A stretch of 64,000 nt of DNA from the IMG/VR virus record IMGVR_UViG_3300042303_000041, positions 6,648 to 70,647 of that record; one strand, given 5' to 3'. The notes under the pieces were generated by a model that saw nothing but the letters and a program-made list of their open reading frames with translations, ran no database searches and was not told the DNA's origin. Of the stretch, positions 34,521 to 43,226 are shown piece after piece; the stretch's first letter is position 1; every line of letters begins with the position of its first letter. The stretch is from a virus (taxonomy: Duplodnaviria > Heunggongvirae > Uroviricota > Caudoviricetes). The position numbers and the translations under genes were made by a program.

Positions 34521-35957
34521 TTAAGCTAAGTCGTACTTTGGCACCATAAGTGCTTTCAACATGATTGCTTCTGGAGTGAACTTTTCAGTATCACCACCAA
34601 GCAATGCAACCATGATAGCTGGAGAGAATCCAGATACCAGTGCTACGCCACGAGTGTCGTACTTAACTGGCACATTGTCTGCTGCGTTCAAATTCCAGAA
34701 CACGATCTTTGGGATCTCGTATCCTGCTTCTTCGAACTTACGTGCAATCATTTGCATTGCGGAGTCGTCAAACTTTGCGCATTGGTCAAATTGCATATCA
34801 GACATGATCAACAACATTTCTGGCATTTCTTCTTGAGGAACACCACCCTTTACGGCAGTATCAAGAATCTTCTTCATGGCTTTCACCAAGTCAGTGTTCA
34901 TTCCCCAGTTAGAGTCAGACATCTGCTTGATCTTGTCAACGATGTTACCCTTCAAGTACAACAGTTCTGGTGCACCAGAGAAAGTCAGGAACGTATCCTT
35001 GAACTTACCCTTGTTCTTGTCAGCCATATACAATCCCAAAGAGACTGCAACGTCCAAACATGTAGTTTGGGACTTAGAGGTGCGACCACCTGCTGCGCAT
35101 GTCATAGAGCCAGAAACGTCAACCAATGGCAATACGTTAGCATCACCAATGAAGTTTTCCAAGGCATCCCATTGGGCTTGCAACGCACCCAACTCGGTAG
35201 AGTTGTAGCTCTTAGTGTAACCACCGATAGCACCCTTAAGCACATCGTATGGGAATACAGCACCAGCATTGATCTTCACGTTCATAGTGCGATCCTTTGG
35301 ATCCTTGATCAACTCAGCTACGTACTTTGCATACTCTGGAGTGTTACGGAAGAATGCCTTCTTGTAACGAGCAGCAGCCACAGATGGAACATGGGAGAAG
35401 TTGATTTCATCCCACTTTTGTGCACACATTTCTTGTTCAACAACCTTAGTCATTTCAACCAAGGACTTACGGTAGAACTTTGGAGACATGCCGAAAAACT
35501 TACGGATTTCAACAGCTACATCACCCTTACGTGGAGTCCACTTTGCAGCCAGACCATTCTTTTCACGCAATGCGTCACCAAGCATGCTATATGCTTGAGT
35601 CTTCAAAGCCTCAGTCTTGAAAACGAACACGTCGTCCCAACGACCCAACTCTGGAACTTTTGGCAACAGCTTTGCTGCCAACTCTGGACGATAAGTTTCC
35701 AAGTGCACCATGATTTGACGGAACAACTCACGTTCACCTGCACCACCACGTGCGTCACGCAGCCATAGAGCCAGACGCATTGCTACGTCTTCGTTCTCTA
35801 CTAGAGCGGCAGTAAATTCTTTGGTGATGTTCTTACCACGTGATGCGCCAGCTTTGAAGAACAAGTCAACGCAAGCTGATGCAGTGGATTTACGAGCAAC
35901 CATGCCATTCGCAGTGCGGGCAGATTGATTTTGGACAGCGGATACAAATGTGTTCAT
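34521..35957 (-). CDS. DUF2828 / Ro60(TROVE)-like RNA-binding protein with C-terminal vWA domain
   Basis: RDARGGAGER, GRWDD, LAAKWTPR, FSHVPS, VDVSGSM (MIDAS), SDMQFD, IVFWNL, VSGFSP; strong codon bias. Confidence 0.85.
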   Translation of the reverse strand: MNTFVSAVQNQSARTANGMVARKSTASACVDLFFKAGASRGKNITKEFTAALVENEDVAMRLALWLRDARGGAGERELFRQIMVHLETYRPELAAKLLPKVPELGRWDDVFVFKTEALKTQAYSMLGDALREKNGLAAKWTPRKGDVAVEIRKFFGMSPKFYRKSLVEMTKVVEQEMCAQKWDEINFSHVPSVAAARYKKAFFRNTPEYAKYVAELIKDPKDRTMNVKINAGAVFPYDVLKGAIGGYTKSYNSTELGALQAQWDALENFIGDANVLPLVDVSGSMTCAAGGRTSKSQTTCLDVAVSLGLYMADKNKGKFKDTFLTFSGAPELLYLKGNIVDKIKQMSDSNWGMNTDLVKAMKKILDTAVKGGVPQEEMPEMLLIMSDMQFDQCAKFDDSAMQMIARKFEEAGYEIPKIVFWNLNAADNVPVKYDTRGVALVSGFSPAIMVALLGGDTEKFTPEAIMLKALMVPKYDLA

Positions 35958-35997
35958 ATATTTCTTTCAAGTAACAGGAGAGGATTCTCCTAAAAAT

Positions 35998-36097
35998 AAC
36001 AGGCTAGTTTCCTACTTTTTGTTTAGGGTGAGAACTCGAAACTCACCATCTTATGATGCGGGTATTAATCCGCTAAGATTTTGCTGAACCTAACCTA
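35998..36097 (-). ncRNA. Y-RNA-like family copy A (5' leader of the Ro60-like gene)
   Basis: AGGUUAG-GUUCAGCAA...CUAGCCU-GUU directly after promoter 36108-36136. Confidence 0.75.
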
Positions 36098-36140
36098 ACG
36101 AACTTTTATTATACCTTAAGTAAGAATAAAAGTCAACAAC

Positions 36141-37292
36141 TTATGCTTCACACAGATAGTGCAACCGTGTTCTAGCTTTTCTAAATTCTTTATTCTCATG
36201 CAACCATTTTGGGTCTACCTTATCTATGTAAGATTTCCAATGATGTCTCCATACATCCTTCATTGCAAGCATTTCTGGTCTACATTCTAACCAGTAATCC
36301 TTTTGCTTTCCATCGAATTCTGGAACAGGCATGGGCTTAAAGGCTTGGAACTTTGCAAAGTTCCAGTCTGGATAAATCACACTTCTAATGAAATCTGAAG
36401 ATTCTTCAAACAGTTTCATATGAGCCAACAATTCAGTTTGTCTTTTCGCAGAATCTCTATAGGTACTAAGTATAAGATTTTTATTAAGATTCTTATTTAC
36501 CTTATACAATTGATATACTTTATATGCCTGCTCAACAACTATTTGCGGCATGTCAGGTGACCAATAAAAATACTCTGTACCTTCTGGATTCTCTGGTCTA
36601 GGTGGACATGTTGCTGTAGCCTGATCTACAAAATAGAAAAAGCATTTAGTGCCAGCAACCAATATCGTTGGTTTATCAACTCCGTAGATAGAACCAACAC
36701 GCATTCCTTTATCAACCAATAACGTTTCGGTTTCGCTGCCGTAATGTCCTCTCAACAGATTTGTCATGAAGTTATCATTAACAGTTCTTTGGAACAAGTC
36801 GTCAGTAAAGTAACCTTCATTGAGATTATCTAACCAATCACCAACCTCAATCTTAATCTCTGGATGGGCTTGAGCTAACCACTCAAGATCTTTCTTCAAT
36901 GTAAAATCCCATTCGCTGGCAAAGTTAAAAGCAGATCTATCATTAGCATTGGGAGTATAAAATCCCTTATCCATAGCAGCCTTTGGCCATTTGACAAAGA
37001 CATGATCTAGTTTAATATTATTTTCTAAAAAGGTATGCAGTACAGTCCAGCTGTCACTACCACCACTATAATTTAATATTAAATAGTCATATTTGTCTCT
37101 AAGCTGCAAGGCACGTTGTTTATATAACTCTTTTAAGTCTGCTTTTCCAGTAGGCTTAACCTTGCTGAAAATATCATCATGAAAATTCCATGTCATTGGA
37201 ATGTTTAATTCTGTGGCTCTAATTGCTGCCATAGTTTTGCTGGTAAATCTCTCGTCACCAACTACATAATATCCGCCGTAGTAATTTTGCAT
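36141..37292 (-). CDS. PP-loop (adenine nucleotide alpha-hydrolase-like) protein
   Basis: LNYSGGSDS; GVDKP. Confidence 0.65.
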   Translation of the reverse strand: MQNYYGGYYVVGDERFTSKTMAAIRATELNIPMTWNFHDDIFSKVKPTGKADLKELYKQRALQLRDKYDYLILNYSGGSDSWTVLHTFLENNIKLDHVFVKWPKAAMDKGFYTPNANDRSAFNFASEWDFTLKKDLEWLAQAHPEIKIEVGDWLDNLNEGYFTDDLFQRTVNDNFMTNLLRGHYGSETETLLVDKGMRVGSIYGVDKPTILVAGTKCFFYFVDQATATCPPRPENPEGTEYFYWSPDMPQIVVEQAYKVYQLYKVNKNLNKNLILSTYRDSAKRQTELLAHMKLFEESSDFIRSVIYPDWNFAKFQAFKPMPVPEFDGKQKDYWLECRPEMLAMKDVWRHHWKSYIDKVDPKWLHENKEFRKARTRLHYLCEA

Positions 37293-37293
37293 A

Positions 37294-38196
37294 TCACTTC
37301 TTTTGTAATCTACCAACACTGGCTTTAATTGTCTTTTCTAAACTTAGAATTCCAAAAGCAGAAGCAACAGTATTTTCTAGCAGAAAATCGTTTTGTACCT
37401 GTGGATCATTTAAATATTCCTGCATAAAACCACTCCACCATTTGACAGCTTCTACGTTAGTACCATTAGAAACAACTAACGCAAACCCATCAAAGTGTTG
37501 CCATGTAGGATATTTTTGTTCGATGTTAAACGCATTAATACCCTTTGGCTTTTCCTTTGCAGCAATTGCAAGTGAGTTAACTTTACCAGAAGCAATATGG
37601 TTTTTAGCAACACTGTAAGGAACAACACCTACATCAATATGACCTGCTACAAGATCATTAATAACTGGTGCACCACCTTTGTATGGCACCAATAGTGCTT
37701 CGTGTTTTGTTTTAGTGAATTCTACAAATTGTTCTAAAACTAATTTTTGTGCAGGTGCCCCATGCCCTAAAGATATCTTATCGCCATTTTTAATTGCTCG
37801 TTCTAAATCATCAACAGTAGTTAAATTACTTTTAACACTAGAAAGTATACTGGTGATGTTATCGCGAATAGCTGTTATCGGTAAAACATCTGTACCTCGA
37901 ACTCTATTCTCTGCAATAACTGCAGCAGTAGTTACTGAAACAGCGTATCCATCTTTTGGCGAGTTATTCAATTCATTGATTGATACAATACCTTCACCTC
38001 CTGGTTTATAAACGCCTACCATTACAATACCTTTATTGGCAGCATACTTTTGTAAATGCCTAAAAGTTTGATCGACGCCTCCACCTGGAGAAAATGGCAT
38101 TATAACTTGAATGGATTTAGATTTAGGATCAAATGCATTGGCAGACAGAGCCAAGCATAAAACAAATGAAGATAAAACAACTTTTACAATATTCAT
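37294..38196 (-). CDS. Tripartite tricarboxylate transporter substrate-binding protein (Bug/TctC)
   Basis: Signal peptide, MPFSPGGGVD, YKPGGEG, PKDGY, VPYKGGAP, LVAGHID. Confidence 0.88.
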   Translation of the reverse strand: MNIVKVVLSSFVLCLALSANAFDPKSKSIQVIMPFSPGGGVDQTFRHLQKYAANKGIVMVGVYKPGGEGIVSINELNNSPKDGYAVSVTTAAVIAENRVRGTDVLPITAIRDNITSILSSVKSNLTTVDDLERAIKNGDKISLGHGAPAQKLVLEQFVEFTKTKHEALLVPYKGGAPVINDLVAGHIDVGVVPYSVAKNHIASGKVNSLAIAAKEKPKGINAFNIEQKYPTWQHFDGFALVVSNGTNVEAVKWWSGFMQEYLNDPQVQNDFLLENTVASAFGILSLEKTIKASVGRLQKK

Positions 38197-38214
38197 TATA
38201 TACCTTTATAAAAT

Positions 38215-42698: not shown

Positions 42699-42773
42699 TG
42701 GTGCGCCCTGAGAGAATCGAACTCCCACTCCAACGTTCGTAGCGTTGTGTAATATCCATTTTACTAAAGGCAC
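42699..42773 (-). tRNA. tRNA-Arg(ACG)
   Basis: Loop CTACGAA. Confidence 0.92.
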
Positions 42774-42778
42774 ATAAT

Positions 42779-42908
42779 TGGTGGGGATGACGGGATTCGA
42801 ACCACGTACAAGAACTTTTACAGAGTTATAGTGTTAGTGTTGCGGAAACAATTCTACATACAGAATTGACTTTTTACTTTGCTATGCTAACCATTACATC
42901 ACATCCCC
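42779..42908 (-). ncRNA. 130-nt tRNA-like RNA with the anticodon arm replaced by a large insert
   Basis: GGGGAUG:CAUCCCC-ACCA, D-loop AAUGGUUAG, T-loop UUCGAAU; insert AGAAUUG-UUUCCGCAA...UAACUCU-GUA. Confidence 0.7.
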
Positions 42909-43079
42909 AAAATCTTAATGAAACACACTCTCGACGTCAGGGGTCTTTTCATCGTGCTGACTAAGCTACTTCGTTGAGTGAACCGTGGAGTCAATACGCT
43001 TCAACAACCAATGATGAATATGCTTCATTAAGATGACTGACAATTTATCACATTGTACGCCATCAGTCAAGGCGAATTT

Positions 43080-43155
43080 TGGTGGACCGTGGGAGGATCG
43101 AACTCCCGACTTCTGCGTGCAAGGCAGATATGTTCCCAATTATACCAACAGCCCA
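43080..43155 (-). tRNA. tRNA-Ala(TGC)
   Basis: Loop CTTGCAC; G3:U70. Confidence 0.92.
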
Positions 43156-43160
43156 TAAAC

Positions 43161-43226
43161 AACAGGATAGTTTTGTCGCTAAGACAACCAAAAAGTTTAG
43201 CATTATGTATTGCAGAACCTATCCTA
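43161..43226 (-). ncRNA. Y-RNA-like family copy E
   Basis: AGGAUAG-GUUCUGCAA...CUAUCCU-GUU. Confidence 0.75.

What the first reader, a model, noticed from the sequence alone, without database searches (positions are those of the whole stretch)
34521..43226. Ro60/TROVE-like protein with a dispersed family of covarying Y-RNA-like ncRNAs
Seen: six minus-strand elements share a 7-bp closing stem, a fixed 5'-side motif (G/C)U(U/C)C(A/U)GCAA and, in five of six, a 3' GUU tail, with unrelated interiors. The stems covary: AGGUUAG:CUAGCCU (35998-36097), GGGAUGA:UCAUCCC (38215-38425), AGGUUAA:UUAACCU (40267-40329), AGGAUCC:GGAUCCU (40495-40554), AGGUUAG:CUAACCU (42383-42491), AGGAUAG:CUAUCCU (43161-43226). 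A seventh variant lies inside a tRNA-like RNA. One copy leads the DUF2828/vWA gene. Known: Ro60/Rsr (TROVE+vWA) proteins bind the terminal bulged helix of Y RNAs, which carry variable effector modules; from memory DUF2828 is a divergent TROVE/ROT-vWA family. Inference: a phage RNP system in which one Ro-like protein docks many modular RNAs for tRNA protection, decoy or repair functions. The motif differs from the published YrlA binding consensus, so this may be an undescribed class.
Basis: partly seen in the sequence, partly recalled or inferred. Interest (0 to 1): 0.95.

Follow-up and report, generated by a model that had tools for sequence, protein, structure and literature searches.

The report
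Phage Ro60-like protein with partner RNAs
A lake phage encodes a ring-shaped protein with the predicted fold of the Ro60 autoantigen, plus seven small RNAs that share one conserved "handle" joined to pieces of tRNA; this apparently undescribed RNA family sits beside the same gene in very distant phages and closely resembles the orphan Class I RNAs of social amoebae.

Summary
Six minus-strand elements, plus a seventh built into a tRNA look-alike, share a 7-bp terminal stem, a single-stranded (G/C)UYC(A/U)GCAA motif and, in five of the six, a GUU tail. They are the only such sites in the 168-kb phage genome.

- **Covariation:** in 54 homologous copies from related phages the stem is 98.9% paired, and 6 of 7 pairs covary.
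- **Linkage to the gene:** all 199 model hits in 80 related contigs lie on the gene strand. In 64 of 67 contigs one copy ends 14-252 nt upstream of the DUF2828 start codon.
- **Distant phages:** a model built from this clade also finds copies beside the homologous gene in Listeria, Campylobacter, Synechococcus, Mycobacterium and Felix-O1-type phages. It finds none in three tRNA-rich phages that lack the gene.
- **Protein:** DUF2828+DUF7788 gives a confident model (pLDDT 94) that matches Ro60 over its full length (Z 21).
- **RNA interiors:** they mimic tRNA parts, namely anticodon arms, T arms and a permuted tRNA.

Binding is inferred, not shown. No Rfam family matches. The handle resembles Dictyostelium Class I RNAs, but scores below Rfam's threshold. 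A homolog, Bas63 gp130, is reported to counter the Ppl defence. This scan noted the same family on at least 36 other genomes.

The parts
34521..35957 (-). Gene for a 478-aa DUF2828 + DUF7788 protein with a predicted Ro60-like ring plus a vWA domain carrying a complete MIDAS motif
   Evidence: Pfam PF11443 (6.9e-22) and PF25043 (1.8e-48). PHROG 850 'RNA-binding protein'. Invariant D280, S282, S284, T355 and D387. Model pLDDT 94.1. Ro60 is the top hit: Z 21.0 over 414 aa, Foldseek E 1.7e-8.
35971..35994 (-). Mini hairpin AGGAGA...UCUCCUGUU between element 1 and the start codon; it has a handle-like stem and tail but no CAGCAA motif
   Evidence: Weak model hit, 13.9 bits; read from the sequence. 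Its function was not tested.
35998..36097 (-). Element 1 (100 nt): handle AGGUUAG/CUAGCCU + GUUCAGCAA + GUU tail; the interior has two hairpins, one resembling a T arm. It is the leader of the DUF2828 mRNA.
   Evidence: Model R1 26.7 bits. MFE -28.4 kcal/mol, z -3.76. The position is conserved in 64 of 67 related loci.
36108..36136 (-). Sigma-70-type promoter TTGACT-17-TATAAT, whose -10 box ends 12 nt before the handle of element 1
   Evidence: 11 of 12 consensus match. Consensus match only; transcription was not shown.
38215..38425 (-). Element 2 (211 nt): handle GGGAUGA/UCAUCCC + CUUCAGCAA, GAU tail, large multi-hairpin interior
   Evidence: One mismatch to the pattern. Fold closes on the terminal stem. 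Ortholog with a GUUG tail in L012 and L013. Not found by model R1.
38437..38464 (-). Sigma-70-type promoter TTGACT-16-TATAAT (with TG extension), whose -10 box ends 13 nt before the handle of element 2
   Evidence: 11 of 12 consensus match.
40267..40329 (-). Element 3 (63 nt): handle AGGUUAA/UUAACCU + GUUCAGCAA + GUU; interior hairpin CUAG-9 nt-CUAG. It lies between a degenerate tRNA-like sequence and tRNA-Thr(UGU).
   Evidence: R1 48.0 bits, E 1.7e-9.
40495..40554 (-). Element 4 (60 nt): handle AGGAUCC/GGAUCCU + GUCCAGCAA + GUU; the interior is an anticodon-arm mimic (5-bp stem, 7-nt loop CUUGUAA). It lies between tRNA-Asp and tRNA-Val.
   Evidence: R1 67.0 bits, E 2.6e-14. Rfam Dicty_Class_I_RNA 28.6 bits, below the gathering score of 41.5.
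42383..42491 (-). Element 5 (109 nt): handle AGGUUAG/CUAACCU + GUUCUGCAA + GUU; the interior is a circularly permuted tRNA-like domain (T arm with GGUUCGAUUCC, acceptor-like stem with CCA in its closing loop, D-like hairpin)
   Evidence: R1 37.5 bits. MFE -33 kcal/mol, z -2.66, with those helices. Partial tRNA-Sec model hit on the T arm and acceptor.
42782..42908 (-). tRNA look-alike (acceptor stem, D arm, T arm, CCA) in which a closed handle hairpin plus UUUCCGCAA takes the place of the anticodon arm. It has the same parts as element 5, with the ends at the acceptor stem instead of the handle.
   Evidence: Rfam tRNA 36.7 bits with a long insertion. R1 16.6 bits at 42817-42858. Fold.
43161..43226 (-). 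Element 6 (66 nt): handle AGGAUAG/CUAUCCU + GUUCUGCAA + GUU; interior hairpin GCUAA-14 nt-UUAGC. It lies between tRNA-Ile and tRNA-Ala.
   Evidence: R1 52.7 bits, E 1.1e-10.
39186..44256 (-). Array of 27 ARAGORN-called tRNA genes (plus extra tRNA-like sequences) in which elements 3-6 are embedded, driven by several TTGACT-17-TATAAT promoters
   Evidence: ARAGORN, Rfam, promoter scan.

Best explanation
These are genes for small non-coding RNAs that act as Y-RNA-like partners of the Ro60-like DUF2828 protein encoded at the downstream end of the same minus-strand RNA gene cluster.

**How the RNAs are made.** Each RNA is either cut out of a tRNA operon transcript by the tRNA-processing enzymes (elements 3-6 lie 5-6 nt after a tRNA's CCA end) or starts at its own promoter (elements 1 and 2).

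**Constant part.** Each RNA has a handle: a 7-bp helix that begins with an A-U pair and then a G-C pair, a single-stranded N-U-Y-C-(A/U)-G-C-A-A stretch on the 5' side, and a GUU 3' tail. I propose that the handle docks on the protein ring, as the Y RNA stem docks on Ro60.

**Variable part.** The interior displays a piece of tRNA: a canonical 5-bp/7-nt anticodon arm (element 4), a T-arm-bearing or fully permuted tRNA body (elements 1 and 5), or a whole tRNA body (42782-42908).

**Proposed role.** The particle would present tRNA look-alikes to enzymes that recognise tRNA. It could act as a decoy or sponge for host tRNA-directed nucleases, or as an adaptor that brings repair or processing enzymes to tRNAs. 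Either way it would protect the phage's translation supply during infection.

**Shown here:** the RNA family and its structure, its tight and directional linkage to the gene across phyla, the Ro60 fold, and the tRNA mimicry.

**Inferred:** transcription and processing, protein-RNA binding, and the biological role.
For: - **Structure under selection.** The stem is 98.9% paired, with 103 double-sided changes; 0 of 500 shuffles reach this. There are 18 G-U pairs in 183 copies, readable only on this strand.
- **Specificity within the genome.** Only 6 model hits in the 168-kb genome, all in the tRNA cluster.
- **Linkage.** All 199 R1 hits in 1.13 Mb of related contigs are on the gene strand. By pattern, 254 copies lie upstream and 15 downstream, and 64 of 67 loci have a copy ending 14-252 nt before the ATG.
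- **Linkage at 30-47% protein identity.** Listeria A511 has three copies directly upstream (40.5, 34.3 and 15.8 bits). Campylobacter NCTC12673 has two and Synechococcus phage BUCT-ZZ01 has three. Mycobacteriophage Wigglewiggle has two directly downstream. Felix-O1-type Mushroom and Bas63 carry copies in the adjoining tRNA array.
- **Controls.** Three tRNA-rich phages without PF11443 have no hit; two phages with the gene have hits next to it.
- **Protein.** Full-length Ro60 fold with a MIDAS motif.
- **tRNA mimicry.** 44 of 79 interior hairpins in short copies have 7-nt loops (3.6 expected). Their consensus is C-U-NNN-A-A, 31 have U33 plus R37 (0.6 expected), and 38 of 45 have 5-bp stems. Of 94 long copies, 44 carry GGTTCRANYC.
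- **Precedent.** Ro60/Rsr binds tRNA-like YrlA RNAs encoded next to it (PMC4201824), and Thermus phage phiLo Ro60 binds two upstream Yrl RNAs (PMC12135203).
- **Family function.** Bas63 gp130, 42% identical to this protein, counters the Ppl defence (bioRxiv 10.1101/2024.10.10.617714).
Against: - No binding or expression data exist for this phage. Metatranscriptome contigs cover the region but cannot show transcript ends or exclude DNA carry-over.
- The handle is unlike the Ro60-binding helix of Y RNA or YrlA: its conserved bases are single-stranded, with no CGAA bulge. The Ro60 analogy therefore does not predict the contact.
- gp130 alone, from a plasmid or inserted in T7 without Bas63's RNAs, restored plaquing on Ppl. 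At least that activity does not need the phage's own RNAs.
- Synteny could reflect co-regulation rather than binding.
- Element 2 departs from the consensus and is missed by the model.
- The absence control covers only three phage genomes that lack the gene.
Confidence: 0.68

Rival explanations
1. The RNAs are real and stand-alone, but their handle is bound by another factor, such as a host or phage RNase, an RRM or La-type protein, or a tRNA-modifying enzyme. The DUF2828 gene travels with them only because both belong to the same tRNA-maintenance module.
For: In Dictyostelium the look-alike Class I RNA is known to be bound directly by an RRM protein, Rnp1A (PMC7919456). gp130 works against Ppl without its own RNAs. 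Other RNA enzymes cluster nearby: a PF04308 RNase-H-like protein and a phosphoesterase here, and RtcB and an RNA ligase in A511.
Against: The single most conserved position of a copy is immediately next to the DUF2828 gene, across phyla, whereas the other neighbouring genes vary. The gene and the RNA were present or absent together in the 5 genomes tested.
Confidence: 0.15
2. The elements act in cis. They would be processing or insulator modules of tRNA operon transcripts, and in the leader an autoregulatory or translational control site for the DUF2828 mRNA, rather than trans-acting RNAs.
For: One copy is always in the 5' leader of the gene, 14-85 nt from the ATG in most loci. The others sit exactly between tRNAs. 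A handle-like mini hairpin lies between element 1 and the ATG.
Against: A processing signal would not need a strictly conserved single-stranded motif together with tRNA-mimicking cargo of many kinds. tRNA-rich phages without the gene lack the elements. In mycobacteriophage and Felix-O1-type phages the copies lie downstream of the gene, not in its leader. The two roles are not exclusive: the leader copy may autoregulate as well.
Confidence: 0.12
3. The elements are miniature mobile DNA elements, with the stems as terminal inverted repeats, or degenerate tRNA gene fragments with no function of their own.
For: Multiple dispersed copies with inverted ends. Copy number and position vary between related phages. 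The interiors contain tRNA pieces.
Against: All 199 hits are on one strand. The stem sequence covaries rather than being conserved, and G-U pairs occur. The motif is conserved in phages of five phyla. No target-site duplication was evident.
Confidence: 0.03

Closest known systems
Ro60/Rsr with YrlA-type Y RNAs (bacteria and TROVE-encoding phages; Chen et al. 2014, PMC4201824; Rfam RF02553)
   Same: A ring-plus-vWA protein is encoded next to several small RNAs closed by a 5'/3' stem. At least one RNA carries a tRNA-like domain whose anticodon arm is replaced by the protein-binding stem; element 5 has exactly this topology.
   Different: The protein belongs to Pfam DUF2828/DUF7788, not TROVE, with 12-17% identity to Ro60 in structural alignments. 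The RNA handle has a single-stranded CAGCAA motif and GUU tail instead of the bulged Ro-binding helix. No Rfam YrlA or Y RNA hit was found. Many copies carry only an anticodon-arm mimic. The copies are embedded in a 27-tRNA array.
Thermus phage phiLo Ro60 with Yrl1/Yrl2 (PMC12135203; PDB 9KOP, 9L5Y)
   Same: A phage-encoded Ro60-fold protein with partner RNA genes directly upstream of it. It is a structural match to my model (Z 15-16).
   Different: phiLo Ro60 is a true TROVE protein, and its Yrl RNAs use a CGAA bulge. Binding and PNPase recruitment are shown there and not here.
Bas63 (Escherichia phage JohannRWettstein) gp130, anti-Ppl counter-defence protein (bioRxiv 10.1101/2024.10.10.617714)
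   Same: Same protein family: 42% identity over residues 11-475, E 5e-86, locus tag bas63_0130. It is directly adjacent to a tRNA array that holds a handle-bearing element between tRNA-Met and tRNA-Asn. The authors noted the Ro60-like fold and guessed at hidden Y RNAs.
   Different: The RNAs were not identified there. The anti-Ppl effect did not require them. Whether the protein of this lake phage counters any defence is unknown.
Class I RNAs of dictyostelid amoebae (Rfam RF01414; Kjellin et al. 2021, PMC7919456)
   Same: Same design: about 60 nt, with a short covarying terminal stem whose outer pairs are A-U then G-C, and a conserved single-stranded motif right after the 5' strand. The Dictyostelium motif is CCUUACAGCAA; here it is GUUCAGCAA, and in Listeria, Campylobacter and Felix-O1-type phages it is U(A/U)ACAGCAA. 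The 3' end is CUGU, the interior is variable, there are many copies per genome, and a few long forms carry inserted modules.
   Different: Scores are below the Rfam gathering threshold (28.6 and 23.1 bits against 41.5). Spacing between stem and motif differs by one nucleotide. The amoeba RNAs have eukaryotic promoters. The only known direct binder there is an RRM protein. I could not establish whether dictyostelids encode a DUF2828 protein.

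Membership tests
DUF2828/DUF7788 protein family (Pfam PF11443 + PF25043; PHROG 850) | Significant match to both Pfam models above the curated cut-offs | tested here: met
   PF25043 165.2 bits (cut-off 27.1) and PF11443 78.3 bits (cut-off 29). 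phrog_850 at 8.2e-138.
Ro60/TROVE proteins | Sequence match to the TROVE domain | tested here: not met
   No TROVE hit at E <= 0.01 in Pfam. A profile search of PDB sequences gives Ro60 as the top hit, but only at E 0.029, and over the MIDAS region.
Ro60/TROVE proteins | Helical-repeat ring followed by a vWA domain (whole-chain fold) | tested here: met
   Predicted model with pLDDT 94.1. Against 1yvr: Z 21.0, rmsd 4.0 A, 414 of 478 residues. The ten best rows are all Ro60; vWA-only hits score Z <= 11.4. Foldseek. This compares a prediction with solved structures.
Ro60/TROVE proteins | MIDAS metal site in the vWA domain | tested here: met
   D280-x-S282-x-S284, T355 and D387 are invariant in 126 homologs.
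Ro60/TROVE proteins | Binds Y RNA on the outer ring surface and single-stranded RNA ends in the pore | not testable with these tools
   No RNA-protein prediction or experiment was available.
Y RNA / YrlA (Rfam RF00019, RF02553) | Covariance-model score at or above the gathering threshold | tested here: not met
   No Y RNA or YrlA hit on any element, even at E <= 10 on 699 nt.
Y RNA / YrlA (Rfam RF00019, RF02553) | 5' and 3' ends paired in a stem that carries the conserved protein-binding site (bulged helix or CGAA motif) | tested here: not met
   The terminal stem is present and covaries. The conserved bases are a single-stranded CAGCAA stretch next to a plain 7-bp helix, with no CGAA bulge.
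Y RNA / YrlA (Rfam RF00019, RF02553) | tRNA-like module (T arm, D arm, closed acceptor stem) attached to the binding stem | tested here: met
   Element 5 folds this way. 44 of 94 long relatives carry a canonical T-loop sequence. The short copies carry only an anticodon-arm mimic.
Y RNA / YrlA (Rfam RF00019, RF02553) | Encoded next to the gene of its Ro-type protein | tested here: met
Dictyostelid Class I RNA (Rfam RF01414) | Covariance-model score at or above the gathering threshold of 41.5 bits | tested here: not met
   Element 4 scores 28.6 bits (E 0.0034 on 699 nt; 0.052 on 10.6 kb). The Listeria A511 copy scores 23.1 bits. The other copies were not reported.
Dictyostelid Class I RNA (Rfam RF01414) | Short covarying terminal stem with a conserved outer G-C pair; ends AAG...CUGU | tested here: met
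   The stem starts (U)AG and ends CUGU(U) in 5 of 6 window copies and in most relatives. Compared with the published description and sequences.
Dictyostelid Class I RNA (Rfam RF01414) | 11-nt motif CCUUACAGCAA next to the 5' stem strand, with U3, C6, C9, A10 and A11 near-invariant | tested here: inconclusive
   The window copies keep C6, C9, A10 and A11 but have G or C at position 3, and lie one nucleotide closer to the stem. Copies in Listeria, Campylobacter, Mycobacterium and Felix-O1-type phages read U(A/U)ACAGCAA and keep all five.
Dictyostelid Class I RNA (Rfam RF01414) | Dictyostelid origin with a DUSE promoter; bound by Rnp1A | tested here: not met
   This is a phage with bacterial sigma-70-type promoters. 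No Rnp1A-like gene was looked for.

The most novel reading that the evidence does not exclude
The phage handle RNAs and the Class I RNAs of dictyostelid amoebae are one RNA family, by descent or by transfer from bacteria or phages that the amoebae eat. If so, the amoeba RNAs, reported as unique to Dictyostelia and of unknown mechanism, would also be Y-RNA-like partners of a Ro-type ring protein: a DUF2828 relative, or the TROVE protein TEP1, which one paper says is a vault component in Amoebozoa. More broadly, 'handle plus cargo' RNAs bound by DUF2828 proteins would be a second, widespread Ro/Y-RNA-like system found in phages, bacteria, fungi and plants.
Probability: 0.2. Interest if true: 0.95.

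Novelty: new variant of a known kind. Interest (0 to 1): 0.85.

Why it matters
**An unstudied protein family gets an RNA partner.** Ro60-Y RNA particles are a classic but still poorly understood RNA-surveillance system. This finding gives a very large protein family (6,153 cluster representatives at E <= 0.001; 711 cultured phage records) a candidate RNA partner with a simple, testable recognition element.

**Testable phages are available.** They include Felix O1 relatives, Listeria A511, Campylobacter NCTC12673 and Bas63, where the protein already has an anti-defence phenotype.

**A possible mechanism.** The cargo is tRNA pieces, including textbook anticodon arms. This points to a concrete idea for how tRNA-rich phages deal with tRNA-targeting defences. 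It also gives meaning to unannotated gaps in phage tRNA arrays.

**A lead on the amoeba RNAs.** If the resemblance to Dictyostelium Class I RNAs reflects common origin or a common binding mode, a 20-year-old orphan RNA class would gain a mechanistic lead.

Tried and rejected
- **Single-sequence AlphaFold.** The model was unusable (pLDDT 43.8). I replaced it with a model built on a 126-sequence alignment.
- **Rfam.** At gathering thresholds only tRNAs and a tmRNA are found in the window. No Rfam family reaches its threshold on any element.
- **Expression.** Four lake and river metatranscriptome runs hold contigs over parts of 35.9-43.4 kb, including elements 1, 2 and 5. Contigs cannot show ends, strand or level, and DNA carry-over is possible, so this neither supports nor refutes transcription.
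- **Does Dictyostelium encode DUF2828?**
  - The profile search restricted to long proteins returned plants and fungi only.
  - AlphaFold DB rows showed no organism names.
  - The Swiss-Prot structure search showed no Dictyostelium entry.
  - The pull-down paper (Avesson 2011) is not held.
  - The proteome file in the Class I paper's supplement is truncated.
  - The question stays open; none of this is evidence of absence.
- **Complex prediction.** Not used, because it does not take RNA.
- **Mobile-element and tRNA-fragment readings.** Rejected on strand bias and covariation.
- **The 198-nt spacer at 40637-40836.** Folding gave no signal (z 0.30).
- **Literature.** A search for 'DUF2828' found only five incidental mentions, none functional.

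Full report
**What the window is.** The window is part of a 168,097-bp viral contig with direct terminal repeats. Near-identical DNA occurs in many lake-water metagenomes. The region 34-44.5 kb is transcribed leftward. It holds 27 tRNA genes called by ARAGORN plus several tRNA-like sequences, six near-consensus promoters of the form TTGACT-16/17-TATAAT, a few small ORFs, and at its downstream end a 478-aa ORF (34521-35957).

**Checking the observation.**
- The pattern AGGWTNNSTYCWGCAA has five exact hits in the window and in the whole genome. All are on the minus strand between 36 and 43 kb, and the reversed pattern has none.
- The sixth element (38215-38425) starts GGG and ends GAU.
- Each element is closed by a 7-bp helix. 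The helix is often extendable by a U-G pair. On the 5' side it is followed directly by (G/C)UYC(A/U)GCAA, and on the 3' side by GUU(G/A)UU.
- The interiors are unrelated in sequence and range from about 37 to about 190 nt.
- Elements 3-6 begin 5-6 nt after the CCA of an upstream tRNA or tRNA-like gene. Three of them end a few nucleotides before the next tRNA.
- Elements 1 and 2 each sit 12-13 nt downstream of a -10 box.

**Is it more than chance?** I fetched 80 viral contigs encoding relatives of the ORF at 48-94% identity.
- A simple scan found about 230 distinct copies with 80 different 5' stem strands.
- In an alignment of 54 short copies (A2) the stem is paired in 98.9% of cells. Six of seven pairs change on both sides (103 cells), no shuffle of 500 reaches this, and sliding the partner by 1-3 columns drops pairing to 30-47%.
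- Eighteen G-U pairs occur in 183 copies. This fits an RNA read from this strand.
- A covariance model built from A2 (R1) finds 199 hits at E <= 0.01 in 1.13 Mb of related contigs, every one on the strand of the protein gene.
- The same model finds only six hits in the phage's own genome, all in the tRNA cluster. R1's E-values are rough because calibration is shortened.

**Link to the gene.**
- In 64 of 67 related loci with enough upstream sequence, a copy ends 14-252 nt before the start codon, and in most of them 14-85 nt. Pattern hits are 254 upstream against 15 downstream, in comparable lengths of flank.
- The model was trained only on this freshwater clade, yet it finds copies next to the homologous gene in cultured phages whose proteins are only 30-47% identical:
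  - Listeria A511: three copies directly upstream (40.5, 34.3 and 15.8 bits).
  - Synechococcus phage BUCT-ZZ01: three copies, two of them just upstream.
  - Campylobacter NCTC12673: two copies just upstream.
  - Mycobacteriophage Wigglewiggle: two copies just downstream.
  - Felix-O1-type phages Mushroom and Bas63: copies in the adjoining tRNA array.
- Whole-genome searches of three tRNA-rich phages that lack PF11443 (Acinetobacter AB-Navy1, Aeromonas 65, Phass-1) gave no hit. A511 and NCTC12673 gave hits beside the gene. This control is small but points the right way.

**The protein.**
- Pfam assigns DUF2828 (N-terminal part) and DUF7788 (C-terminal part), with no TROVE hit. PHROGs calls the family 'RNA-binding protein'.
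- The family is very large. It occurs in 711 cultured phage records, some annotated 'Ro-like RNA binding protein'.
- An alignment of 126 homologs shows an invariant MIDAS motif and many near-invariant Arg and Lys residues in the helical half.
- With that alignment AlphaFold gives pLDDT 94.1 and pTM 0.92.
- Foldseek's 13 best PDB hits are all Ro60 or TROVE proteins, matched over the whole chain with TM up to 0.63. Swiss-Prot models give Ro60 from five species, then telomerase p80 and TEP1.
- VIA-align gives Z 21.0, rmsd 4.0 A, over 414 residues against Xenopus Ro60, and Z 15-16 against the Thermus phage Ro60. The next unrelated rows, at Z <= 11.4, cover only the vWA domain.
- The protein therefore has the Ro60 architecture while failing the sequence definition of TROVE.

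**What the RNAs carry.**
- Element 5 folds into the handle plus a T arm (GGUUCGAUUCC), an acceptor-like stem whose closing loop contains CCA, and a D-like hairpin. This is a circularly permuted tRNA body, the topology described for YrlA.
- The tRNA look-alike at 42782-42908 has the converse arrangement. Its ends are at the acceptor stem, and a closed handle hairpin plus UUUCCGCAA sits where the anticodon arm should be.
- Among 84 short copies, 44 of 79 interior hairpins have 7-nt loops (3.6 expected from shuffles), with consensus C-U-N-N-N-A-A. Thirty-one have U at position 2 and a purine at position 6 (0.6 expected), and 38 of 45 have exactly 5 bp. That is the geometry and signature of an anticodon arm. 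Element 4 is of this kind (loop CUUGUAA). These counts include orthologs from related phages, so they are not independent events.
- Of 94 long copies, 44 contain a canonical T-loop sequence.
- The design is thus a constant handle plus a piece of tRNA.

**Most likely mechanism.** I read the handle as the docking site for the Ro60-like protein and the cargo as bait for tRNA-recognising enzymes.
- By analogy, Rsr with YrlA and phiLo Ro60 with Yrl1/2 are ring proteins bound to RNAs encoded beside them.
- A homolog has a phenotype. Bas63 gene 130 is 42% identical to this ORF. Its deletion makes Bas63 sensitive to the Ppl defence, and the gene rescues T7.
- That rescue worked without Bas63's RNAs. 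The RNAs therefore cannot be obligatory for every activity of the protein; this is the main caution against my reading.
- Binding, processing and role remain inferences.
- The rivals are another binder of the handle, a purely cis-acting role, and mobile DNA. They are weighed in their own sections. The leader copy may well also autoregulate the gene.

**Comparison with known families.**
- No element reaches any Rfam threshold, and YrlA and Y RNA do not appear at all.
- The only Rfam family that picks up the elements is Dicty_Class_I_RNA: element 4 at 28.6 bits and one A511 copy at 23.1 bits, both below the gathering score of 41.5. There were no hits of that model anywhere else in about 72 kb searched at permissive thresholds.
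- The published description of Class I RNAs matches feature by feature: about 60 nt, a covarying terminal stem, ends AAG...CUGU, the 11-nt motif CCUUACAGCAA beside the 5' strand, a variable interior and many copies. So do the 37 curated D. discoideum sequences.
- The copies in Listeria, Campylobacter, Mycobacterium and Felix-O1-type phages read U(A/U)ACAGCAA, which keeps all five near-invariant amoeba positions.
- I could not find out whether dictyostelids encode a DUF2828 protein. The known direct binder there is an RRM protein. I therefore treat common ancestry as a minority possibility (about 0.2), not a finding.

**Novelty.**
- The Ro60-like nature of the protein family is already in annotations and in one preprint, which also guessed that Y RNAs hide among the tRNAs.
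- I found no paper or Rfam family that defines the RNA family, its handle, its linkage across phyla or its tRNA-piece cargo.
- Earlier reports of this same scan describe the family on at least 36 other genomes and also noted the Class I resemblance. Those are unchecked AI notes and not independent evidence. One of them gave me the lead to the PhageMaP preprint, which I then checked myself.
- One later check recorded there rated a 'bold reading' at 6/100, which made me keep the amoeba link modest.
- Verdict: a real, well-supported new variant of the Ro/Y-RNA kind of particle. This window is a rich example of it, with seven copies showing four kinds of cargo.

Noticed in passing
window 9606-10070 (-): The phage encodes a two-piece (permuted) tmRNA of the betaproteobacterial type: Rfam beta_tmRNA 102 bits, tmRNA_permuted 123 bits, ARAGORN tag peptide ANDTVYALAA. 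It hints at a betaproteobacterial host.
   Followed up: no
window 40637-40836 (-): A 198-nt unannotated spacer between tRNA-Asp and tRNA-Tyr has by far the highest summed contig depth in two lake metatranscriptome runs (about 2,500 and 785). A relative's contig skips it exactly (joint 40637 to 40836). There is no Rfam hit and no unusual folding energy (z 0.30). Depth may include other organisms.
   Followed up: partly
window 36141-38196 (-): Two ORFs lie between elements 1 and 2. One is a 392-aa protein with an SGGSDS (PP-loop-like) motif and no Pfam or PHROG hit. The other is a 300-aa TctC-family periplasmic binding protein with a signal-peptide-like N-terminus, which is unusual cargo for a phage. 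A metatranscriptome contig of a relative joins 36138 directly to 38210, so this pair is an insertion in this phage.
   Followed up: partly
window 38672-39328 (-); L093 9487-10011: A PF04308 (DUF458, RNase-H-like) protein is encoded in the RNA cluster here. A DUF458 protein lies directly downstream of the DUF2828 homolog in Vibrio phage phi-ST2. It may be a further component of the module.
   Followed up: no
window 42909-43079 (-): About 170 nt of unannotated sequence lies between tRNA-Ala and the handle-bearing tRNA look-alike. It contains a long-range stem (CUUAAUGAA...UUCAUUAAG) and an inner hairpin but no CAGCAA motif. It could be another structured RNA.
   Followed up: no
window 42500-42587, 44017-44084, 40337-40405, 34245-34315 (-): Extra tRNA-like sequences missed by ARAGORN: a tRNA-Ser(UGA)-like gene (tRNA-Sec model, 33.9 bits), a 41.7-bit tRNA, a degenerate tRNA-like sequence just upstream of element 3, and a 27.9-bit tRNA-like sequence downstream of the DUF2828 gene.
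   Followed up: no
L095 6507-7058 (Listeria phage A511): A sub-threshold ROOL RNA match (87.5 bits against a gathering score of 99.1) lies about 650 nt upstream of the three handle RNAs and the DUF2828 gene. RtcB-type and Rnl-type RNA ligases and phosphoesterases are encoded just downstream.
   Followed up: no
Supplement of PMC7919456: [quoted passage not shown] This parallels the short and long forms of the phage family.
   Followed up: no
L096 / NC_015464.1 11063-11123 (+): Campylobacter phage NCTC12673 has a second handle-model hit (20.1 bits) far from the annotated DUF2828 gene. tblastn reported two matching places in that record, so a second gene-RNA pair may exist.
   Followed up: no
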